From: Paraglomus brasilianum
Taxonomy: Eukaryota
Length of the DNA stretch: 40,781 nucleotides
Direction: 5' to 3'
NCBI GenBank assembly: GCA_910592345.1
Contig: CAJVPI010000231.1
Span: 1 to 40,781 of the forward strand
Every line of letters starts with the position of its first letter. Positions within the stretch are counted from its first letter, which is position 1. Of this stretch, positions 1,883 through 40,781 are shown in pieces. The position numbers were made by a program, and so were the translations under genes. The notes beneath the pieces are model-generated. The model did not search any database and was not told the DNA's origin. It saw nothing but the letters and a program-made list of their open reading frames with translations.

Positions 1883-4800
1883 ATGTCCCAAGGTCAATCG
1901 ACAAACAGCACGTATGAGTGGTTAGTTAAGAGTGTCCGGGAAGGTTTTATCAAACGCTATTCGGAAGATGACCTCATAGATCGTACACCGATCGGTCATG
2001 GTGGATATGGTGTCGTATACAAGGCCAAGATAAAGCATTCTGGAAAACCAGTCACAATGAAAGCCTTGTTGCTAAATCGACATGGAGGTGAAGAATCATA
2101 TAAAGACTTTGTCAAAGAGGTTGTCAACGGTTACCTATTTTTTAATTATTGCATAGCGATAGCTTAAGGGCTGTGTAAACTGAATTATTTTACAATCCAT
2201 AACATAATAGCTGAGAACTCATAAACAGGTGGATGACCATCCAAATATTATTCGATTCTTAGGAATATCTCAAGGTGCACTAATTAATGCTAGATGTTAT
2301 GGTTTCTGTACATAAGTGATTGTAACTTATTCTACTCTACAACATAAAACAGATTTATCTGGCCCTTATTATATGGTGATTGAATATGCAGATGGCCAAA
2401 CTTTGTGTGAACACTTGCAGAAACATTTCTCTGAGCTGACATGGAAGGACAAGTACAAACTGGCTTTGGGGGTTACTGATGGGCTGTTGTATTTACATAA
2501 ACTCGAAATAGTTCACAAGAACTTGGTATGTATTGATGTTGCATGGTTTGTTTGCATATTAATATTGTAAAATATATATAGAATCATAATTTAATGCTTA
2601 CAACAACTATATATATATTAATTGTTACTATTATATAGTCTTCAACAAATATTCTCATCCAAGAAGGCATCACAAAAATAACAGACTTTGGATTGTCTAG
2701 TGCTCTCAAACAGACTATGTCCACATCAAAAGGTGAAAGAAATATGGCATATATTGATCCATTATCTTTTAAAAACAAATCTTATAAACGTGGAAAACAA
2801 TCAGACATCTTCAGTCTTGGGGTGATACTCTGGGAGATTTCAAGTGGAAAACTTCCATGTAAAGGGGCTACCACAAGTTATGAAGTTTTCTTATACAGAT
2901 TGAATGATTTCCATGATTCTCCTTTTCTTGGAACATCTGAATATTATATTGATCTATATTCTAAATGCTGGGATGAAGACCCTAACAAACGCCCATTGAT
3001 TCAAACAGTAAACAAACTACTCAAATCATTGATTACTCAATCACCATTTCATACATTAGATCTGAGTGATTGTCAAATTGGATATACAGAAGCAATAGCT
3101 TTAGCAAAGGTTGTTGAACTGAATTTCTCTGCACATTCTTTAAGTTTAGTTTGTAATAAGATTACACATACAAGAGCAATAACTGCTTTGGAAAAGGCTC
3201 TAAGAGATTCTTTTTCTGTGATATCCCTAAACCTTCAGGGTAATCAGATAGGAGATACAGGAGCAACAGCTTTGGCAAAGGCTTTGGAATTAAATTCTTC
3301 TTTAATATCTTTAAATCTTCAGAGCAATAAGATAAGAGATATAGGAGCAAAAGCTTTGGCAAAGGCCCTGGAATCAAATTCTTCTTTAACATCTCTAAAC
3401 CTTCAGTATAATCAGATAGGAGATACAGGAGCAACAGCATTGGCAAAGGCTCTGGAATCAAATTCTTCCTTAACATCTCTAAATCTCCAGTATGATCAGA
3501 TAAGAGATACAGGGGCAATAGCTTTAGCAAAGGCTCTGGAATCAAATTCTTCCTTAACATCTATAGATCTCCAGTATAATAACATAGGAGATACGGGGGC
3601 AATAGCTTTGGCAAAGGCTCTGGAATCAAATTCTTTTTTAACATCTCTAGATCTTCAGTATAATCACATTGGAGATACAGGAGTAATAGCTTTGGCAAAG
3701 GCTCTGGAATCAAATTTTTCTTTAACATCTCTAGATTTTCAGTATAATCAGATAGGAGATACAGGAGCAACAGCTCTAGCAAAGGCTCTGGAAGTAAATT
3801 CTTTTTTAACATCTCTAGATCTTCAGTATAATCACATAGGAGATATAGGAGCAACAACTTTGGCAAGGGCTCTGGAATCAAATTCTTCTTTAATATCTCT
3901 AAACCTTCAGTATAATAAAATAGGAGATATAGGAGCAACAGCTTTGGCAAAGGCTCTGGAATCAAATTCTTCTTTACTGTCTCTAAATTTGCATAATAAT
4001 CAGATAAGACAAACAGGAGCAACAGCTTTGGCAAAGGTTCTGAAATCAAAATTTTCTTTAATATCTCTAAACCTTCAGTATAATCAGATAGAAGGTACAG
4101 GAGTAACAGCTTTGACAAAGGCTCTGGAATCAAAAATTTTTTTAACATCTCTAAACCTTCAGAGTAATAATATTGGAGATGCAGGAGCAATAGCTCTGGC
4201 AAAGGTTCTAAAATCAAATTCTTTAACATATCTAAATCTTCCAGGTAATAAGATAGGAGATACAGGAGCAACAGCTCTAGCAAAGGCTCTGGAATCAAAT
4301 TCTTCTTTAACATCTCTAGATCTTTCAAGAAATAAGATAGGATATACAGGAGCTACAGCTTTGGCAAAAGCTCTGGAATCAAATTCTTCTTTAATATTTT
4401 TAAACCTTCAGCATAATCAGATAGGAGATACAGGAGCAACAGCTTTGGCAAGGACTCTGGAAGTAAATTCTTTTTTAACATATCTAGATCTTCAGTATAA
4501 TAAAATAAGTGCCACAGGAGCAACAGCATTGGCAAAGGCTCTGGAATCAAATTCTTCTTTAACATCTCTAAACCTTCAAAAGAATCAGATAGGAGCTGCA
4601 GGAGCAACAGCTTTGGCAAAAGCTCTAGAATCAAATGTTTCTTTAACATCTCTAAACCTTAAACGGAATCAGATAGGAGAAATAGGAATGGGAGCAACAG
4701 CATTGGCAAAGGCTTTGGAAGTAAACTCTTCTTTAACATCTCTAAACCTTCAGTATAATAGGATAGGAGATACAGGAGCAACAGCTTTAGCAAAGGCTCT

Positions 4801-5968
4801 GGAATCAAATTCTTCTTTAGCACTTCTAAACCTTCATTATAATAAGATAGGAGGTACAGGAGCAACAGCATTGGCAAAGGCTCTGGAATCAAGTTTTTCT
4901 TTAACATCTCTAGATCTTCAAGGGAATCAAATAGGAGCTACAGGAGCAACAGCATTGGCAAAGGTTCTGGAATTAAATTCTTCTTTAACATCTTTAAACT
5001 TTCAGTGTAATGAAATAGGAGATATAGGAGCAACAGCTTTGGCAAAGGCTTTGGAAGTAAATTCTTCTTTAACATTTCTAAACCTTCAGCATAATAATAT
5101 AGGAGATACTGGAGCAACAGCTTTGGCAAGGGCTCTGGAATTAAACTCTTTTTTAACATCTCTAGTTTTAGGATGGAATAGGATAGGAGATACAGGAGCA
5201 ACAGCATTGGCAAAGGCTCTGGAATCAAATTCTTCCTTAACATCTCTAAATCTCCAGTATTATCAGATAAGAGATACAGGGGCAATAGCTTTGGCAAAGG
5301 CTCTGGAATCAAATTCTTCCTTAACATCTATAGATCTCCAGTATAATAACATAGGAGATACAGGGGCAATAGCTTTGGCAAAGGCTCTGGAATCAAATTC
5401 TTCTTTAACATCTCTAAACCTTTGGAATAATAGGATAGGAGGTACAGGAGCAACAGCATTGGCAAAGGCTCTGGAATCAAATTCTTCTTTAACATCTCTA
5501 GATCTTTCAAGAAATAAGATAGGATATACAGGAACAATAGCTTTGGCAAAGGCTTTGGAATCAAATTCTTCTTTAACATCTCTAGTTCTAGGATGGAATA
5601 GTATAGAAGATACAGGAGCAATAGCCTTGGCAAAGGTTCTGGAATCAAATTCTTCTTTAACATCTCTAGATTTTCAGTATAATCAGATAGGAGATACAGG
5701 AGCAATAGCTTTGGCAAAGGTTCTGGAATTAAATTCCCCTATAACATCTCTAGATATTCAGTATAATAAAATAGGAGATACAGGAGCAACAGCTTTGGCA
5801 AAGGCTCTGGAATCAAATTCTTCTTTAATATTTTTAAACCTTCAGCATAATATGATAGGAGATACAGGAGCAACAGCTTTGGCAAAAGCTCTGGAATTAA
5901 ATTCTTTCCTTAAATCTTTAAACCTTCAGAGTAATATGATAAGATATACAGGAGCAATACTGCAATAG
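1883..5968 (+). CDS. TKL-type (pseudo)kinase fused to about 34 RI-like leucine-rich repeats; exons 1883-2119, 2211-2274, 2353-2525, 2639-5968
   Basis: Spliced frame gives GHGGYGVVYKA (G-loop), VTMK, HPNIIRFLG, HKNL|SSTN, DFG, AYIDP, SDIFSLGVILWEI, CWDEDPNKRP, then 28-aa units LTSLNLQYNQIGDTGATALAKALESNSS. All introns are GT-AG and frame-consistent. Confidence 0.92.
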
Positions 5969-6080
5969 CTTTGGCAAAGGCTCTGTAATCAAATTCTTCT
6001 TTAATATCTTCAGAGTAATCAGATAGGAGATACAGGAGCAGATTTTGGCAAAGGCTCTGGAATCAAAGTTACTCTTAACA
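3050..6080 (+). repeat. 84-bp tandem coding repeat (28-aa LRR), about 34 in-frame units plus 1-2 decayed units past the stop
   Basis: Recurring GGAGATACAGGAGCAACAGCTTTGGCAAAGGCTCTGGAATCAAATTCTTCTTTAACATCTCTA at an 84-nt period. Confidence 0.97.
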
Positions 6081-7884
6081 TGTGATAGTGATAGTTCACA
6101 TTATTTATTATTTATTATTTATTATTTATCTTTATTAAATACACATTTGAAAACCTGTTTATAAACTTATATACTCTTATTTTTGTACTTACAAGAACAG
6201 TGGTTAATATTAATATTCAACTGTGGACATTCAAAATATGTTTGTGAGCAGTTACTGCCCAAGGGATTTATTTAATTAATCAAGACTTTTAATAACTACA
6301 AAAGCATCTGTTTGAGTTTTTCTTTTCTGTCAACATCTGAATTTGACTAAATATTAACAACTGAATAAAGCATGCTCAAATATTATAATGTCTGAAACAT
6401 ATTACTAATATTTATAAGTTATAAGGCATGTAAAGTTCTAAGAAAGTATGATAATATTTTTCTAGTGAATAGAATGTAATTTTTCCCCATGTTGTTGTTG
6501 GATATCCAAGTCCAGAGTGATGGAAGTATTTAATAATAGGTAATTTGTATGTATTTATTATTTGATATAGACCAATTATTTTTGTGTAAACAAAAGCATC
6601 TCGTTTATTGCTAGTAATAAAAGTCTAAAGAGGAAAAGGGGCTGTTTAATTAGGTATTATTCTACTTCGTTATACGATGTAGGATCTAAATTAGTCGTTG
6701 TTAAGTCGAAAATTTTTCGCTGTATTAGATGACGTAATTCTTGCTTTACGGATTGTTTTCGAAGACTCAGTAGTAGATTTATTTTTTTTTTGGTCAAGTT
6801 GAGATTGATCTGTTGGGGAGACGTATTTTTATCACGTTGACTTATATTTTTATCGATGATGATCTGATCAACGTAACTGCTTTTGTGTGGCAGAAGATTA
6901 GGAAGATGGTCATATACCATCAATCGGGCTTTTATATATTTACCATACACGAAGGAATTAGACTTTAGCGGTAATCGCTCGCGTTATGAAATCAGGCATA
7001 TAAAACCAGATTCAGGAAATCAAAAAAAAAAGTATGTAATACATGTTTGCGCACAAAAAAAAAGGGTTGAAGTCATAGAAAACAAGTTGAAGTATCGACA
7101 AGCTAATTAAGAGGAAACTTTTCAACAAAGGAGGCAAACACCAAGTTGCAAAAAAAAAAAAAAAAAACTACAAGTTTTCTGATTGGGTGAGTTGTTTTAA
7201 AACTATTGTGGTAGTTGATACAAGTTAGAAAATATCGAGATTACACTTCAGTTAATAAATTTACGATGTATTTTAATTTATCATTCAAAAATATTACTAT
7301 CTTTGGGGTTCATTGTATAGATGACCACCGTCAACCTTTGGTATCTTAGATCAAAACAAATCGTCATTTTATATAGTTTGTTCAGCCATCCCTAAACGTT
7401 CGATACATCTTATTTCCAAGTAAACACACCAGCAATCATAATCGTTTTTCAATAAATTGAAATTCTACTAGGATGTCACGGATATAAGAGACGAACAAGC
7501 TTCTCGGTTTTCATCCTGTTTTGAAATAATGTAAACACAAATTATTTTAGTATCCGTTGCCCCATATCAATTTAATGGCAAGTCTTAAATGGTGCTAGTT
7601 TTTAATTATTGGTGCAGTGATTGGTAAATGGGACCCGTTACGCCAAATTATCTTTATATAGTAAATCTGATAACAATGATGTAGTACAATTAAATTGTAA
7701 TGAGATTATTCTATAGATTATCTGTCACGTTCTACAAGTTATTGTTTATACCGACAGTTGTTACATGTTCCGTATACTAATACGGTAATAGCGGTGAGAG
7801 CCGAAGATCTTTATCTGCAGGATCCTGCAAACATAAAAAAACGTATGCAACCTAGTTATTTCTTTTATCTCCCATACGCGGAAC

Positions 7885-10252
7885 ATGTCCAAGTATGCGC
7901 ACAAAGAGTGGCTAAATGAGAGCCTGAGAGAAGGTTTAATCGAGTGTTGTTCAGATGAAGACATCATTATCCACCCTATGCCTATAGGTCGTGGTGCATA
8001 TGGTGTAGTCTATAAGGCCAAAATGAAGGCTTCTGGAACGACCGTTGCAATGAAAACTTTGTTTTTTGAGGAGGGCAGTTGTAAAGAAGATTTAATTAAA
8101 GAGCTTGTCAAAGAGGTTAGTTAGCATTACGTGTCTACATTGTTTATTGTTTAAAGTTTAAACCAACAAGTTCTAAAATTCCGTACGCATATAATAATAG
8201 TTGAAAAATCACAAGCGAATGAACAATCATCCCAACATCATTCGTTTTTTTTGTTTGTGCAAAGGTGTGTTTGACAATGTTCGACAGTATCAAGTGTTTA
8301 CCAAAAAAAATACCATAGTTTAACAATAACGTTTATAGATGGGCATGGCAATTACAATATGATATGTGAATATGCCGACGGTGGGACCTTGCATAAACAC
8401 CTTGTGACGCACTTTGATAGTCTATCCTGGAGAAACAAATACCAGCTGGGTTTGGAGATTACCAATGGCCTAAGATATTTACATGAGCTCAACATCATTC
8501 ACAAGGACTTGGTATTGTGGTTTTTTTTCTTTATTGTTTTCTGTACACTGTCATGTGATGCAATCTAATAATGTATGTCATTGTATCTAGTCTTCCACGA
8601 ATGTCCTTATCCAGAATGGCGTCGCGAAGATAGCCGATTTCGGTTTATCCACCGTATTAGAACAGATCACGTCTACATCAAAGGGTAAGGGCAACGCAGC
8701 ATATGTTGATCCGGTATCGATAAAGAGTGCTTCCATCAAGAATGTTTCCTATCGGCGTGGAAAGAGATCCGACATTTTTAGCCTGGGAGTAATACTATGG
8801 GAAATCTCTAGTGGAAAATTTCCATGCGAAGGCTGCACTCAAAGTTTCGAAATTGTTATATACAGACTGAATGGTTTTCGCGACCCACCCGTTTTTGGAA
8901 CGCCTGAAGAGTATATCTTGCTGTATTCGGAATGTTGGGACGAGAACCCTAACAGACGACCATTATGTGAAGAAGTATACGAAAGGCTTAAACTATTGTT
9001 GAAATTGATCGATCTCGACAAGTCATTGGAAACTGATTCTAACAATGCTAGGGCATTGGGACAAAGAGGGGAAGCTTATTACACGCTTAAAAAGTATGAC
9101 GACGCCTTACATGATTTTAATAAATTGTTGAACATGGAACCAAATAACGAATGGGCTTTGAGTAGAAGAGGGGCCATATATTGCATGTTTGATCAGTATG
9201 ATGACGCATTGAAAGATTTTAATAAATCATTGGAGACTGAACCGAACGATGCGTGGACGTTAAACAGAAGAGGATACGTCAACTACATGCTTGGACAGTA
9301 TGACGACGCATTGAACGACCTCAATAGATCGTTAGAGATTGAACCAAATAACGCATGGGCATTGGGTAGAAGAGGAGAAATCTACTGCATGCTCGGTCAG
9401 AATGAGAATGCATTAAATGATCTCAACAAGTCGCTCGAAATTGAACCCAACGATGCATGGACATTGAGTAGAAGGGGAGAAATCTATTGCACGCTTTGTC
9501 AATATGACGATGCACTAAACGACTTTAACAAGTCGCTGGAGATGGAACCAGATAGCACATTTGCCTTGAAGGGAAGGGGAGAAGTCTATTGCATGCTCTA
9601 TCAATATAACAACGCACTAAATGATTTCAACAAATCGTTGGATATCGAACCAAACGATGCGTGGGCATTAAGCAGAAGGGGAAACTGCTATTGCGTGCTT
9701 CGCCAGTATGACAATGCATTGAACGATCTCAACAAATCGTTAGAGTTTGAACCAGATGATGAATGGGCTTTGAGCAGAAGAGGGAGAGTCTACTATACGC
9801 TCCATCAGTTTGGCAATGCGTTGAATGATTTTGATAAGGCCTTGGAGATTGAACCCAATTATGTATGGGCATTAAGCAGAAGAGGAGAAGTCTATCGTTT
9901 ACTTGAACATTATGACAGTGCGCTGAACGATCTCAACAAGTCATTGGAAATTCAACCAGATGATACGTGGGCACTGAGAATACGAGGGAACATTAATTGC
10001 ATGCTTTATCGATTTGAAAACGCGTTGAGCGATCTTAGTAAATTATTAGAGATTGAACCAAATAATACGTGGGCATTGAGAACACGAGCAGCTATCTATC
10101 ACCAGCTTCATCAATATGATAATGCATTACACGATCTGAATAAGTCGATGGAAATCGATCCGCACAACACATGGGCTTTGAATAAAAGGGGAGAAGTTTG
10201 TTACTGGCTTAATCAGTACGATAATTCATCGAGATCGCAACTACTTTATTAG
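7885..10252 (+). CDS. TKL-type kinase fused to 11 complete plus 1 partial TPR; exons 7885-8115, 8201-8264, 8339-8511, 8591-10252
   Basis: GRGAYGVVYKA, VAMK, HPNIIRF, HKDL|SSTN, IADFG, AYVDP, SDIFSLGVILWEI, CWDENPNRRP, followed by 34-aa units such as NAWALGRRGEIYCMLGQNENALNDLNKSLEIEPN. Confidence 0.92.
9040..10245 (+). repeat. 102-bp tandem coding repeat (34-aa TPR)
   Basis: 34-aa periodic motif W-A-L-x-x-R-G...A-L-N-D-L/F-N-K-S-L-E-I-E-P; nucleotide identity between units is visibly lower than in the LRR and SEL1 arrays. Confidence 0.93.
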
Positions 10253-19699: not shown

Positions 19700-21030
19700 A
19701 ATCTCATATCTTAAGACTGTTTTGTGCCGATGTATTTCCATGTTAGCTGTCTTTTGATACCTAATAAGTTTATTATTATGTATGTTCCTTCCATTCCTGT
19801 TCCATTCTCATAGCAAACACTGAGATTTTGTAAACAGACATTCTCTTGCTCAGGTGCTCTTGTCTACTTCCCACTTGCATAGTAAAAACCAAGGCCAACT
19901 TGTGCATAAGAATGTCCTTGTTCAGCAGCCTTTTGATACAAATCAATTGCTTTTTGTATATCTTTTACAACACCAATTCCATTCTTATAGGAAAGAGCAA
20001 GATTGTATTGTGCATTAGCATTTCCTTGTTCAGCTGCCTTCTGATACAACTCAACTGCTTTTTGTGTGTCTTTTCCCACTCCTATTCCCTCCTCATAACA
20101 AATACCAAGGTTACATTGTGCAACAGCATTCCCTTGTTCAGCTGCTTTCTCATACAGCTCAACTGCTTTTTGTATGTCTTTTCCCACTCCTGTCCCCTCC
20201 TGATAACAAATACCAAGGTTGCATTGTGCAACAGCATCCCCTTGTTCAGCTGCTTTCTCATACAGCTCAACTGCTTTTTGTATGTCTTTTCCCACTCCTG
20301 TCCCCTTCTCATAACAAATACCAAGGTTGTTTTGTGCAACAGCATTCCCTTGTTCAGCTGCTTTCTCATACAGCTCAACTGCTTTTTGTATGTCTTTTCC
20401 CACTCCTGTCCCCTCCTGATAACAAATACCAAGGTTGCATTGTGCAACAGCATCCCCTTGTTCAGCTGCTTTCTCATACAGCTCAACTGCTTTTTGCATG
20501 TCTTTTCCCACTCCTATCCCCTCCTCATAACAAACACCAAGGTTGTATTGTGCTTGAGCATTTCCTTGTTCAGCTGCATTCTGAAACAACTCAACTGCTT
20601 TTTGTATGTTTTTTCCCACTCCTGCTCCCTCCCCATAGCAAATACCAAGGCTAATTTGTGCACTAGTATTTCCTTGTTCAGCTGCTTTCTCATACAGCTC
20701 AACTGCTTTTTGTATGTCTTTTCCCACTCCTGTCCCCTCCTCATAACAAACACCAAGCTTGTATTGTGCAACAGCATTTCCTTGTTCAGCTGCTTTCTGA
20801 TACAGCCCAACTGCTTTTTGTATGTTCTTTTCCACTCCTATTCCCTCCTTATAAAAAACACCAAGGTTGTATTGTGCAACAGCATTTCCTTGTTCAGCTG
20901 CTTTCTCATACAGCTCAACTGCTTTCTGCATGTTAATGTTCTTTTCAATTTCAATTCCATTCTCATTATTATTGTCATAGTGATAACTAAGACTAACTTG
21001 TGCAACAGTATTTCCTTGCTCAGCTACCTT
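19700..21030 (-). repeat. 108-bp tandem coding repeat (36-aa SEL1), including decayed copies past the stop
   Basis: 108-nt period; units 20131-20238 and 20347-20454 are identical. Confidence 0.95.
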
Positions 21031-22194
21031 TTGCATGTTCATTTTCATTCCTGTCTTATTATTATAAAAATGCTGGTTAATATCAAATTCTGGTAGCTGG
21101 TTCTGGTTTTCCATTATATTTTTTAACCTATTATAGCATTGTTCACTGTTTGGTCTTTTTTCTGAGTCATTGTTCCAGCATTCTGTGTATAAATTTTTAT
21201 ACTCTTCTGGTGTGCCTGGAACTACATCATGGCGACCACCCTTCAATCTGTAAAGTTGAATGTCATTGTTGCTGTTGAATTCACTGCATGGATATTCTCT
21301 GCTGGATATTTCCCATAGGATGATCCCAAAGCTAAAAATATCTGATTTTTCATCACGTTTACTGTAATTATCATTAAAGCATTTAGGATCAAGGTATGCA
21401 TAAGTTCCTCCATGATCTGAGTAAGTCTTTTGTTGCAATATTTCTTCAGATATCCCAAAATCCGCAATCTTAGCTGTTTTCCCGTGAATTAGTACATTGT
21501 TTGAAGACTTGTGACAGCATAGAAGCAATAGATCAATACAATTTACATTGAATAAAATGGTACTAATGAGATATACTTACTAAATCTTTATGCAAGATTC
21601 CTACTCGATGAATATACATCAATCCATTGATGATATCCAACCCAAGTTGACAGTTAGCAGGCCAATCTAGTTTGATACCTGGCGTTGATAAGTATTCCCG
21701 TAACGAACCCTTGTCGGCATAATCAAAGACCATCAAGTATCTTCCCTTGATATCTATTTGAACAATTTGGAAGATGTTATACTCATGCTCATTTTTCTAA
21801 TACATGAATTTTTGTCATCACTTACCTTTGCTAACGCCAAGAAATCGGATTATGTTGGGATGGTCATCTACTCTACGATGGATCTTGAGCTAGATATAAT
21901 GCCATGAAACAAATTAAATATAAGAACCAAGTTTTTAGACTCCAGTGCAGTTCCACCATGTTCAATACAGACCTCTTTTACAAAGTATTTCAAGAACTTG
22001 TCTTCGTTCGAATATTTGATCATCTTGAAGGCAACCGTAATGCCCGATGTTGCTACCGTTGCTCTGAAAACTACACCGAATGCACCATGGCCTATGCAGT
22101 CTTTACCTATTAAGCCATCATAAGAATAGAATCGAATGTATTCACTTTCAATGCTCTTTTCTAACCACTCTTTATCTGAGGCAATTGATGTCAT
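19864..22194 (-). CDS. TKL-type kinase fused to SEL1-like repeats (1 degenerate + 9 complete + 1 partial); exons 22194-21973, 21889-21826, 21753-21581, 21507-19864
   Basis: GHGAFGVVFRA, VAFK, HPNIIRFLG, HKDL|SSNN, IADFG, AYLDP, SDIFSFGIILWEI, CWNNDSEKRP, then 36-aa units AQCNLGICYQEGTGVGKDIQKAVELYEKAAEQG. Confidence 0.92.
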
Positions 22195-37377: not shown

Positions 37378-38903
37378 GAATTTGGATGCTATAAAAATAG
37401 AAAGTTTTGTAGAAAAGAATTTATAGCACATATCTATTTTTCAAGTTTTCCGTCCAAAATCACAGTAATCGCTAAGCCATAATGGCCTACATGTAATTAT
37501 AGCGCGCATGTGTTGGCGTTTACTATTTAATTGTCTCTTATACGGTAAAAATTTGCACAGGAGTCAAGATGGCGATTTTTTTTTAAAAATAGGTACCTGC
37601 ATAATTGATCATTATTAGTAATGAAAGGTTGGGCATCGTAATCTATTTCAAGCAACAGCATATTTCTGATAGTGATCACCAGGGATAAAGTTACACAGGT
37701 ATATATATATGCACTGATTGGATGATTTTAAATAACGGCACAATTTCTTATTAGGAAACTGGGACCCAAACTTACTCTGTTTAGACTAGCTTTTGGTATA
37801 TAGCCCATTGTATTGTCTCACTGTTATTTTTATCAGCGTATCTCTCTAATAACTCCAGCAAGCCGACATCACATGATAACAGCGCTTGTTGCAATACGAA
37901 TTGCCCGGCCAATTCATTACTCACACAGCAAGGCATAATAATAAGACAAAACAAAACGACACAGCTTACATTTTAGCTCAATAATATATCTTATCACGTG
38001 ATATACACACTTAGAAGATTTATGGAAAATCGCATTTAATATTAAAGGGTGTATGCGATTAAAATCCAAGCTAACAACAAACATTGCTCGTAAAATCAGC
38101 GTAACTGTTCATGCACATGCGTCAAAGCGTTGGTTGGGTATATAGTAAAGCCAAATGTGCGGCAATATAGAGAGGGAATTAAGAAAAAAGAACGAATTTT
38201 ATATGTCGCATATCTTGCTATCCAGAAAGACTGTTACTATCGCTAAGGATTACCTAATTCAGAAGACACCCTAGCTTGTATTTCTATGTAAAATGGACAG
38301 GGTTATCTGTATGATAAAGTCATATATCCAGAATGTATTTATTGCGCTTGATAGTGATCGCAAGGTTACTATATACTTTATTTGACTACAACATTGAGTA
38401 CTTGGATAAAGGTTTAAATATAACACATCGTTTTTTACGAAATCGAGCGGGGAGTTACAACAAACTCCGTCTTTAGATATATTCGTCCAAAATGTTTATA
38501 TATTCCTGATGTCAGTTTACATAGAAATTAAAAGTCTGTGTTATTTTTATAAAACAAAGGCAGAACGGACATTTATTGAATGCGACCAAGTCTTCCACTT
38601 GCAAGATGTATCCATTGACGTCCTTCTAATTTAAGGCATAACCATATTAATATTACTGATTAGTATTAGTATCAAGTAGAAAACAACATGATGGAATTAC
38701 ACGTGCAATCATTAAGAAGTCCGCTATAACAAATCATACATACTATTATGGAACTCGTGCTATAATAGAGTTCATCGGTTTTGCCTACTGTTGATCTGTC
38801 ATGGTTTAGGAAATTGCGCACAATTGCTTTTCGTGCAACAGTGGTTAGGATGTGAGACTGCTTACAGAAGTGAGTGCGAGGCATTGTAATAGCAACAACA
38901 AAC

Positions 38904-40572
38904 ATGGCCTCAAGCCAGTCTGCTAAGGAATGGTTAAGAAAAAACATTGAAGACGGAAACATTCGGTTTTATTCTTTCGATGACTTTATTAACCAGTTGT
39001 GTATCGGTGGCGGAGGATATGGAATAGTTTCAAAGCCAAAGCGAAGTCACTTGGTAGAACGGTGGCATACAAGCTTTTGCATTCACAAAATGAAGATGAG
39101 ATGATCGAAAACTTTGTCAAGGAGGTTGGTAATATAATGGCGACTTTATATTTGGATTTATTACTTTACTTAAACCACCCAAACAATACTTCTAGCTTAA
39201 GATTCATCGCAACGTTAGTGATCATCCTAACATAATTCGATTCCTTGGCGTGAGTAAAGGTAATAGTAAGCATTGAGGTGTCATTATGGGATACACTTAT
39301 CGTTATTACTATATGACATTAACAGAGACTTAATGATTAGATACGATTAACAGATATGTAATGGTCTTCAAGTACGCCGACAGTGGTTCGTTACAATCTT
39401 ACTTATCAGACCCATCTGTTGAATTGGACTGGCCTAAGAGATGCAAACTTGGTATCAATATCGCTAATGGCCTGAGGTATCTTCACGAGCGCCGTATTAT
39501 ACATAAAGATTTGGTAATTATAGATGTACAGAAATCAATATTATACGTTCAGAACGCTCTATAATATAATAATTGACGATTTTATTATCATTTAGTCTTC
39601 ACATAATATAATAATAATGTATTGATTCATGCTGGCGTGGCAAAGATAACAGACTTTGGTTTGTCTGACCTGATCTTACAACAAAAAAGCCATTCAAACA
39701 TTAAAGGAACCCTTCCATATCTTGACCCCAGATGCTTAATTGACCCTTCTACTAAACGTGATGAAAAGTCAGATATATTTAGCTTTGGAGTGGTATTATG
39801 GGAAATCTCTGGTGGAAAAAGACCATGTGATGGCCTCCAGTATCATAATGACATTGTAAATTATAGACTAAATGGTGGCCGAGATACTCCAGTTTCAGGA
39901 ACTCCTGAAGTATATATCACAATATATTCAGAATGTTGGGATGATGCTCCTGAGAAAAGACCATCTTGTGAGCAGATTTTTGATAGATTAAGCATAATAG
40001 GTCAAATAGCAACAGTTTCATTTTCTGATGAGTTGTCAAGCAAATACCAAGGAAATGCTACTGCACAGTATAATCTTGCTGTTTCTTATCTACATGGAAT
40101 TGGAGTAGAGAAAGATGCTAAGAAGACAGTTGAATTATATCAAAAAGCAGTTGAACAAGGATATGCTACTGCACAAAATGGTCTTGGTTACTGCTATGAA
40201 AATGGGATTGGAGTAGAGAAAGATGCTAAAAAGGCAGTTAAATTATATCAAAAGGCAGTTGAACAAGGAGATGCTAGTGCACAAAATAGTCTTGCTAATT
40301 GTTATCTACATGGAACTGGAGTAGAGAAAGATGCTAAGAAGGCAGTTGAATTATATCAAAAGGCAGCTGAACAAGGAGATACTAGTGCACAAAATAATCT
40401 TGCTAATTGTTATCTAGATGGAATTGGAGTAGAGAAAAATGTTAAGAAAGCAGTTAAATTATATCAAAAAGCAGTTGAACAAGGAAATGTTGATGCACAG
40501 AGCTATCTTGAAGGCTATTATAATAAGAAAAAGAGTATAGGAAAAATGATTAAAAATTGGTTCACACAATAG
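38904..40572 (+). pseudogene. TKL kinase-SEL1 gene (4 complete + 1 partial repeat) with two frameshifts; exons 38904-39124, 39196-39259, 39341-39513, 39596-40572
   Basis: Same exon layout and motifs as the paralogs (GGGGYG, VAYK, HPNIIRFLG, HKDL, ITDFG, PYLDP), but one T is missing at 39028-39030 and there is an 11-nt ATAATAATAAT insertion at 39608-39618. Confidence 0.8.
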
Positions 40573-40606
40573 TAATAGTCACAAACTACTTTTATATTAT
40601 TATTAT

Positions 40607-40781
40607 GGGCCTCCTTAACGTACACCCCGGGTGTACGGCAAATTCGTACACCCCCGGGGTGTACGATAAAAGATACACCCGGGGGTGTAAGTTAAATGGA
40701 TACACCCGGGGGTGTAAGTTAAATGGATACACCCGGGGGTGTAAGTTAAATTGGTACACCCCCCACGTACGGTTAATGTGA
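40607..40781. repeat. GC-rich array of six palindromic units at a 26-27 bp period; possible DNA-transposon subterminal region
   Basis: TACAC starts at 40621, 40647, 40674, 40701, 40728 and 40755; core TACACCC(C/G)GGGGTGTA. Confidence 0.85.

What the first reader, a model, noticed from the sequence alone, without database searches (positions are those of the whole stretch)
3200..5960. LRR array with near-invariant scaffold but hypervariable concave-face codons
The helix part (GATALAKALESNSSL) is almost identical at DNA level across about 33 units. The residues flanking LxLxxNxI vary radically: the pair after the second Leu is QG, QS, QY, HN, PG, SR, QH, QK, KR, HY, QC, GW or WN, and the residue after Asn is Q, K, N, H, R, E, S or M. 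Many need multi-base changes (CAG TAT versus TCA AGA versus GGA TGG). These positions form the ligand-binding beta-face in RI-type LRRs. The pattern mirrors concerted evolution with diversifying selection in Podospora HET-E WD40 arrays and lamprey VLRs. LRR sensors are not typical of described fungal NLRs.
Basis: partly seen in the sequence, partly recalled or inferred. Interest (0 to 1): 0.78.

Follow-up and report, generated by a model that had tools for sequence, protein, structure and literature searches.

The report
Fungal kinase with shuffled LRR sensor
A gene, likely from a mycorrhizal fungus, joins a predicted inactive kinase to 33 look-alike leucine-rich repeats that differ mainly at three loop positions, which makes it a likely variable sensor of a type that the fungal immune surveys read here did not find.

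Summary
It is the tail of a four-exon gene (1883-5968, 1267 aa): a tyrosine-kinase-like domain with His-Lys-Asn in place of His-Arg-Asp (predicted pseudokinase), then 32 complete 28-residue RI-type LRRs and one cut short. There is no NACHT/NB-ARC, so it is not an NLR. Codons 7, 8 and 10 change 4-6 times faster than the rest. M2a beats M1a by 2dL 41.6, and 0 of 83 neutral recombining simulations reach that. Omega is about 6 in the plain model and 2-3 once the local synonymous rate is freed, so a mutation hot spot is weakened but not excluded. Corrections: the helix is 88% alike, not near-identical, and the sites sit in the loop after the strand. Units are shuffled mosaics, and soil contigs show many more unit variants. 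New here: CpG is almost erased over this array and the window's two uniform Sel1 arrays, but not over the diverged TPR array. Gigaspora kinase-LRR proteins show the same pattern. Best reading: a NOD-less variable sensor. Ligand, expression and allele polymorphism are untested.

The parts
1883..2119 (+). Exon 1 of the kinase-LRR gene: start codon, glycine-rich loop GHGGYG, VTMK lysine, alphaC glutamate
   Evidence: GT-AG gene model with a single stop; Pkinase hit E 9e-4; CpG o/e 0.96, not depleted
2211..2274 (+). Exon 2 (kinase N-lobe)
   Evidence: GT-AG introns of 91 and 78 nt on either side
2353..2525 (+). Exon 3, ending in the catalytic loop HKNL (Asn in place of the catalytic Asp)
   Evidence: the same HKNL in soil loci L001 and L009
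2639..3040 (+). Exon 4, kinase C-lobe with DFG
   Evidence: Pfam PK_Tyr_Ser-Thr E 1e-15; dN/dS 0.29 against L001
3041..3217 (+). Linker with degenerate LRR-like repeats (likely N-cap)
   Evidence: translation; a similar stretch in L001-L004
3218..5908 (+). 32 complete 28-residue RI-type LRR units, one with a 1-codon loss and one with a 2-codon gain; codons 7, 8 and 10 hypervariable
   Evidence: model pLDDT 95, best fold match NOD2 LRR, TM 0.91
5909..5968 (+). 33rd unit, cut short by an 8-nt insertion that brings a stop at 5966-5968
   Evidence: sequence; identical in soil contig L010
5969..6070 (+). Decayed remains of about 1.5 further units, outside the reading frame
   Evidence: identical in L010
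2161..6600 (.). CpG-depleted domain over the array and its flanks: 7 CpG in 2161-6649, against 3.4-3.9 per 100 bp in the three control stretches

Best explanation
This is an intact fungal gene for a predicted cytosolic pseudokinase fused to a long RI-type LRR array, and it likely works as a variable non-self sensor whose binding surface is renewed by shuffling of repeats and by selection on three loop residues. Shown: the gene structure, the open array, the mosaic of units, the rate excess at codons 7, 8 and 10, purifying selection on core residues, and the loss of CpG over the array. Inferred: (1) unequal exchange or gene conversion, within the array and probably between paralogs, keeps the scaffold uniform and deals out variants of the 7/8/10 triplet; (2) these residues line the edge of the concave face and set ligand specificity; (3) binding would open or cluster the protein, and the kinase-like domain would signal as a scaffold or through an active partner, such as a paralog that keeps the Asp; (4) repeat-directed cytosine methylation erased CpG over the uniform arrays. 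The ligand is unknown; endobacterial or fungal non-self proteins are the leading guess.
For: Selection: M1a vs M2a 2dL 41.6, omega 5.9 on 10.7% of sites, posterior 0.98-1.0 for codons 7, 8 and 10 and 0.0 for the other 25. It stays at 39.7 with CpG codons down-weighted and at 49.8 after dropping 4 near-duplicate units of 32. 0 of 83 neutral simulations with recombination reached 41; the highest was 28.8. With a free regional rate over codons 5-11, omega stays 2.7-3.0 and beats the hot-spot-only model by 2dL 11.4 and 13.6. Constraint: core omega 0.08-0.17; no stop in 32 units where about 3 are expected (P 0.047); kinase C-lobe dN/dS 0.29 against L001. Shuffling: units 5/26 and 6/27 are 97.6% identical and 15/29 94%; identity does not fall with distance, and a site-incompatibility test gives p 0.003. 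Family: one LRR unit draws summed contig depths of 2,039-24,622 against at most 146 over the kinase in 4 soil runs of 2 studies (not a copy number); loose ends show unit heads that the window lacks; related soil proteins vary at 7 and 8. The same kinase type carries TPR or Sel1 arrays three more times in the window. Of 12 kinase proteins picked as Gigaspora-like, 4 had six or more regular units, with scaffold identity 0.73-0.89 and 7 and 8 among their four most variable sites. No transmembrane stretch (highest 19-residue hydropathy 1.26) and no P-loop.
Against: The nominal p of 1e-9 is not valid: 36-58% of neutral recombining simulations passed the 5% cut. With ordinary codon frequencies, a hot spot exactly on codons 7, 8 and 10 with omega 1 fits as well as selection (lnL -949.4 vs -949.7), and freeing both gives omega 2.1, 2dL 3.3, p about 0.07; with CpG down-weighting it is 2.7 and 2dL 5.7. 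Pairwise piN/piS within the three codons is only 0.85-1.24. Star-like neutral simulations reached the observed amino-acid count in 3 of 80 and 19 of 80 runs. Variation at these positions is general in uniform RI-type arrays: position 8 was among the top three in 27 of 34 proteins, and that set was chosen by identity at the other positions. The last four units and the broken end are identical in soil contig L010 (0 differences over 5627-6099), so that part is not polymorphic between those two samples. CpG loss may mean silencing. The catalytic Asp is lost and the end is truncated, which also fits a fading paralog.
Confidence: 0.57

Rival explanations
1. Codons 7, 8 and 10 are merely tolerant and lie in a local hot spot of mutation, or in a gap in conversion; homogenisation of the rest makes neutral drift look like hypervariability.
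For: The codon-exact hot-spot model ties with selection under ordinary frequencies. The fitted rate multiplier over codons 5-11 is 1.65-1.9 even when omega is free. 6 of 28 minimum steps at the three codons are synonymous. Recombination inflates the test.
Against: Codon 9, between two variable codons, shows no synonymous change in 32 units, and codon 11 has only two codons. Regional hot-spot models lose by 2dL 11-14. With CpG down-weighting, selection beats the codon hot spot. Other tolerant surface codons (2, 3, 17, 22, 25) evolve at omega 0.6-0.75.
Confidence: 0.2
2. The gene is a methylated, silenced and fading member of a birth-and-death kinase family; the pattern is left over from an earlier working copy.
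For: Catalytic Asp lost, end frameshifted with decayed units behind it, CpG erased. Kinase and Sel1-like families are more methylated than core genes in Rhizophagus (PMC8647823, passages).
Against: A 3.8-kb open frame with only in-frame indels inside the array; core omega 0.08-0.17; kinase dN/dS 0.29; HKN also in a haplotype about 7% diverged; exon 1 and the upstream region keep their CpG.
Confidence: 0.13
3. It is a variable binding protein with a non-defence role, such as partner or nucleus recognition at hyphal fusion, or signalling with the plant host.
For: Sequence alone cannot name the ligand; expanded kinase families of these fungi have been proposed to serve perception of the environment (PMC8647823, passage).
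Against: Uniform arrays with a few hypervariable sites are enriched in NLR-like proteins (22% vs 5.6%; PMC13449251 section 12). No death-effector domain was found either way.
Confidence: 0.07
4. The order of units in the window is partly an assembly mosaic of paralogous arrays.
For: The unit family is highly multi-copy; such arrays are said to need long reads (PMC13449251, passage).
Against: The longest exact internal repeat is 79 nt. L010 repeats the last four units and the flank, and L001 repeats the order 25-26-27-28. A mosaic would not create the site pattern.
Confidence: 0.03

Closest known systems
Podospora HET-E/HNWD and other fungal NLRs with high internal conservation (WD40, TPR, ANK)
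   Same: Repeats 80-100% alike with a few hypervariable, positively selected positions and shuffling of repeats (PMC4986451 and PMC13449251, passages).
   Different: Here the repeats are LRRs, which those surveys did not find in fungal NLRs. There is no NACHT or NB-ARC; a kinase-like domain is fused directly to the array.
Ectocarpus ROCO and LRR-kinase candidate immune receptors
   Same: LRR units with positively selected sites on the concave side, joined to a signalling domain without a NOD (PMC3341825, passages).
   Different: There each repeat is an exon and exon shuffling drives change; here the whole array lies in one exon, and the repeat is the 28-residue RI type.
Glomeromycotina TKL kinase-Sel1/TPR expansions; Gigaspora kinase-LRR_6 proteins (P0025, P0096, P0106, P0147)
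   Same: Same kinase type at the N-terminus and a C-terminal repeat array; the Gigaspora proteins share the uniform scaffold and variable 7/8. The best named kinase matches by identity include Paraglomus occultum proteins (58, 54, 48%).
   Different: The Gigaspora proteins keep HRD and have 6-8 regular units by my scan; this one has HKN and 33 units.
NOD2, NLRC3 and ribonuclease inhibitor (RI-type LRR)
   Same: Fold: TM 0.91 to NOD2 (5irm) and 0.90 to RI (1a4y); NLRC3-like proteins fill the sequence search.
   Different: Vertebrate NLRC3 repeats are only 39-49% alike and sit behind a NACHT; coral NLRC3-like proteins are uniform like this array but also carry NACHT.
Lamprey variable lymphocyte receptors
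   Same: Variable residues on a constant LRR frame (PMC3341825, passage; otherwise recalled).
   Different: VLRs are extracellular, built somatically from cassettes, with shorter repeats (recalled); no somatic assembly was shown here.
MLKL and plant ZRK/RKS1 pseudokinases
   Same: A kinase fold without the catalytic Asp, used in immune signalling (recalled); MLKL is a weak hit (6vc0, E 3e-9), below many receptor tyrosine kinases.
   Different: No four-helix-bundle or HeLo domain precedes the kinase; DFG and the lysine are kept.

Membership tests
NLR / STAND receptor | Central NACHT or NB-ARC ATPase with a P-loop | tested here: not met
   No such Pfam hit in exon 4; no GxxxxGK[ST] in the 1267-aa model.
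NLR / STAND receptor | C-terminal superstructure-forming sensor repeats | tested here: met
   LRR_6 E 1e-200; model and fold match.
High-internal-conservation (HIC) sensor array | Repeats about 80-100% identical (85% over 100 aa in PMC4986451) | tested here: inconclusive
   Mean DNA identity 83%, helix 88%; mean protein identity 72%, 79% without the six x positions. Meets an 80% DNA cut, not an 85% protein cut over the whole array; T-REKS was not run.
High-internal-conservation (HIC) sensor array | A few hypervariable codons under positive selection | tested here: met
   Codons 7, 8, 10; size of omega depends on the model.
High-internal-conservation (HIC) sensor array | Repeat shuffling within the array | tested here: met
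   Distant near-duplicates and incompatibility test p 0.003.
High-internal-conservation (HIC) sensor array | Repeat number or order differs between isolates | tested here: inconclusive
   L001 joins a unit-2-like head to units 26-28 (0 of 252 differences) but may be a chimera; L010 is identical over the last four units.
RI-like LRR subfamily | 28-29 residue repeat, short strand plus long helix | tested here: met
Active TKL protein kinase | Catalytic Asp of HRD | tested here: not met
   HKNL; the TPR and second Sel1 kinases of the window have HKDL.
Active TKL protein kinase | Gly-rich loop, VAxK lysine, alphaC Glu, DFG | tested here: met
   GHGG 38, TMK 58, KE 78, DFG 174.
LRR receptor kinase (plant type) | Signal peptide, extracellular LRR, transmembrane helix, C-terminal kinase | tested here: not met
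   Kinase is N-terminal; highest hydropathy window 1.26, first 40 windows at most -0.09.
Lamprey VLR | Somatic assembly from flanking LRR cassettes | not testable with these tools
   Only assembled contigs were listed for this DNA.
Allorecognition or immune receptor (function) | Ligand-dependent signalling or cell death | not testable with these tools
   Needs bench work.

The most novel reading that the evidence does not exclude
Mycorrhizal fungi of this lineage carry a NOD-less immune receptor family: one kinase or pseudokinase chassis with interchangeable sensor arrays (LRR, Sel1, TPR). Actively diversifying arrays are marked by repeat-directed methylation and trade units across a genome-wide pool of paralogs. 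This would be the missing LRR-based recognition system of fungi, likely aimed at endobacteria (which carry kinase and LRR genes of fungal origin) or at non-self nuclei.
Probability: 0.3. Interest if true: 0.86.

Novelty: new variant of a known kind. Interest (0 to 1): 0.63.

Why it matters
The surveys read here report no LRR sensors among fungal NLRs (PMC4986451, PMC12881547) and almost no LRR receptors in fungi (PMC2939053, 49 fungal genomes; 'Glomus' does not occur in its text). A kinase-LRR family with the sequence signature of Podospora incompatibility receptors would fill that gap in an early-diverging lineage and give the large kinase expansion of mycorrhizal fungi a testable job. The match between uniform arrays and CpG loss (3 uniform arrays depleted, 1 diverged array not) offers a cheap genome-wide marker for such arrays and a lead on how they are kept uniform. 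Ten paper searches listed no paper on hypervariable kinase-LRR arrays in these fungi. The library lacks most subscription journals, two relevant papers were not held, and one supplement on HIC repeats across taxa could not be read.

Tried and rejected
No whole genome is held for this window, so paralogs could not be counted. No RNA holder was listed, which says nothing on expression. Earlier findings of the scan: none in three look-ups. A first gene model had the intron 2 acceptor one base off and broke the frame; corrected. Bacterial or endosymbiont origin rejected: three GT-AG introns and eukaryotic neighbours. RIP-like mutation not supported: C>T variants occur at 7 of 8 CpA, 4 of 5 CpC and 11 of 14 CpT sites, with no CpA preference. 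The same site test on neighbours: TPR array 2dL 0.13 (11 units), first Sel1 array 14.9 (8 units; inside the range of the neutral simulations made for the LRR array, so not counted), second Sel1 array 0 (3 units). Kinase dN/dS was obtained only for L001; the script stopped before L002-L008. The simulations had too little diversity (identity 0.85-0.89) and were repeated at 0.81-0.82. The depth drop along one unit is partly technical and was not used as evidence. Solvent exposure could not be computed because no model coordinates were available (file list).
Full report
What is there. Tandem Repeats Finder gives an 84-bp array at 3223-6067 with 33.9 copies. It lies in a 1109-codon open frame, 2639-5968, that Pfam reads as a kinase C-lobe followed by LRR_6 repeats. 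Three GT-AG introns join this to a start codon at 1883, giving a 1267-residue protein with one stop. The kinase keeps its glycine loop, lysine, alphaC glutamate and DFG, but its catalytic loop reads HKNL, so it is a predicted pseudokinase. There is no P-loop, signal peptide or membrane helix. The array has 32 complete units (numbered 2-33) and a 33rd cut by an 8-nt insertion; decayed units follow.

Source. No genome is held. Named kinase homologs are almost all from Glomeromycotina, and Paraglomus occultum proteins give the highest identities among the named ones (58, 54 and 48%). The lineage is therefore inferred to be an arbuscular mycorrhizal fungus. The window holds three more kinases of this type, one with a TPR array and two with Sel1 arrays.

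Checking the observation. Codons 7, 8 and 10 of the unit carry 7, 9 and 8 amino acids and are 55% identical in DNA between units; the helix part is 88% and the whole unit 83%. An AlphaFold model of ten units (pLDDT 95) puts the strand at positions 3-5 and the helix at 13-25, and matches NOD2 and ribonuclease inhibitor (TM 0.91, 0.90). The variable residues thus lie in the loop after the strand. That this loop edges the ligand-binding face of RI-type proteins is established knowledge, recalled and not computed here.

Is it selection? My own GY94 site models on an IQ-TREE tree give M0 omega 0.6, M1a vs M2a 2dL 41.6 and M8a vs M8 36.5, with omega 5-6 on codons 7, 8 and 10 only. Units recombine (p 0.003), which inflates such tests: 36-58% of neutral recombining simulations passed the nominal cut, but 0 of 83 reached 41 and the highest was 28.8. 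A tree-free count was less sharp: at matched diversity the summed amino-acid count of the top three codons was reached in 0, 3 and 19 of 80 runs, and its ratio to the middle codons in 5, 0 and 0 of 80. The harder rival is a local rise in mutation. Fixed-site models, whose sites were chosen after seeing the data, tie selection with a codon-exact hot spot (lnL -949.7 vs -949.4); with both free, omega is 2.1 (p about 0.07); with a regional rate over codons 5-11, omega is 2.7 (2dL 11.4). With CpG codons down-weighted, selection leads and omega is 2.7-4.5. So the 4-6-fold rate excess is firm, and positive selection is likely but of uncertain size. Core residues are conserved (omega 0.08-0.17), and no stop occurs where about 3 are expected (P 0.047).

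Shuffling and relatives. Units 26, 27 and 29 are near copies of 5, 6 and 15 (97.6, 97.6 and 94%), and identity does not fall with distance. Of 17 metagenome loci, ten are close relatives. L010 matches the last four units, the frameshift and the decayed tail without a difference, so the broken end is no artefact of one assembly. L001 has a kinase region about 93% identical (dN/dS 0.29 on the C-lobe, HKN kept), then a unit-2-like head joined to exact copies of units 26-28. That is either a shorter or reshuffled haplotype or an assembly chimera; the longest exact repeat in the array, 79 nt, lies at this junction. L009 is identical to the window over 1719-2199 and then diverges. More distant loci keep HKD. 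In four soil runs of two studies, one LRR unit draws far more contig depth than the kinase, and loose ends in these and in two runs of the likely source sample show unit heads absent from the window. The unit family is thus large, though these depths are not copy numbers.

Breadth. Among 235 proteins then held, 34 had eight or more regular units and a scaffold at least 65% alike; their three most variable positions included 8 in 27, 7 in 18, 10 in 18 and 5 in 17 (the filter favours these positions). They include Gigaspora kinase-LRR proteins with intact HRD, Mortierellaceae LRR proteins, coral NLRC3-like NLRs and many unnamed proteins. Vertebrate NLRC3 repeats are only 39-49% alike. The pattern is therefore recurrent, and not peculiar to this gene.

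An unexpected mark. CpG o/e is about 1 across the window but 0.02 in the LRR array and 0.00 in both Sel1 arrays; the diverged TPR array (68% alike) has 0.96. The loss spreads into the adjoining kinase exons (2 seen, 14 expected; 4 vs 16; 3 vs 18) and spares exon 1 and the upstream region. A uniform array is not many independent sites, so its own count overstates the case; the three arrays and their non-repeated flanks carry the argument. Long-term CpG methylation of repeats is the likely cause; kinase and Sel1-like genes are more methylated in Rhizophagus (PMC8647823, passages). It could mean silencing, or gene-body methylation of a working gene.

Mechanism and comparison. The best reading is a cytosolic sensor: a shuffled LRR surface on a kinase-like signalling domain. 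It works like the Podospora receptors with high internal conservation (PMC4986451, passages; PMC13449251, passages and section 12) and the Ectocarpus ROCO and LRR-kinase candidates (PMC3341825, passages), but it is not an NLR. The surveys found no LRRs in fungal NLRs, and a 2010 survey listed only nine fungal LRR-kinase genes, in a chytrid and in ascomycetes (PMC2939053, passages; its Table S8 not read). Endobacteria of these fungi carry kinase and LRR genes taken from their hosts (PMC10507103, passages), which makes them a candidate counterpart; this is a guess. PMC10197012 and PMC11291939 were seen as passages and describe no such family in those passages. The supplement of PMC13449251, which surveys uniform LRR proteins in non-Dikarya fungi, could not be read and may bear on novelty.

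Verdict. Real; a new variant of a known kind. Interest 0.63. The specialist surprise is an LRR version of the fungal hypervariable sensor, without a NOD, within a modular kinase family and marked by CpG loss. Function, expression and allele polymorphism remain untested.

Noticed in passing
window 2161-6600, 19731-21230, 39881-40618: CpG is nearly absent over the three uniform repeat arrays (7, 0 and 0 sites) while the control stretches have 3.4-3.9 per 100 bp; the diverged TPR array is not depleted.
   Followed up: partly
window about 7870-10252 (+): Neighbouring kinase (HKD) with an 11-unit TPR array, 68% alike, no selection signal.
   Followed up: partly
window 19864-about 21960 (-): Kinase (HKD) with a Sel1 array, 8 scored units 90% alike; variable at Sel1 positions 7, 10, 11, 17 and 20; 2dL 14.9, not beyond the neutral range.
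   Followed up: partly
window about 38900-40572 (+): Second kinase (HKD) with a short Sel1 array of about 4 units.
   Followed up: partly
all four kinases of the window; L001-L009: The catalytic loop has Lys in place of the Arg of HRD (HKD or HKN), whereas Gigaspora relatives keep HRD. Non-RD kinases are linked to immune receptors in plants and animals (recalled); whether Lys counts is unclear.
   Followed up: no
protein P0293: An unnamed related protein joins TPR repeats directly to LRR units of this family, a hybrid of two sensor types.
   Followed up: no
L009:1-1171: Identical to the window over 1719-2199, then about 5-10% diverged: recombinant haplotype, conversion from a paralog, or chimera.
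   Followed up: partly
window 40647-40761: A 27-bp tandem repeat, 4.3 copies, 91% matches, just after the second Sel1 gene.
   Followed up: no
window 11400-34300: Ordinary intron-bearing genes between the kinases: Sec7-PH, class I/II aminotransferase, TRM1 tRNA methyltransferase, acyl-CoA dehydrogenase, DEAD helicase.
   Followed up: no
proteins P0002, P0006, P0015, P0030, P0045, P0108: Mortierellaceae proteins with uniform RI-type arrays behind an N-terminal region without kinase or NACHT annotation; a second fungal family with the same variable sites.
   Followed up: partly
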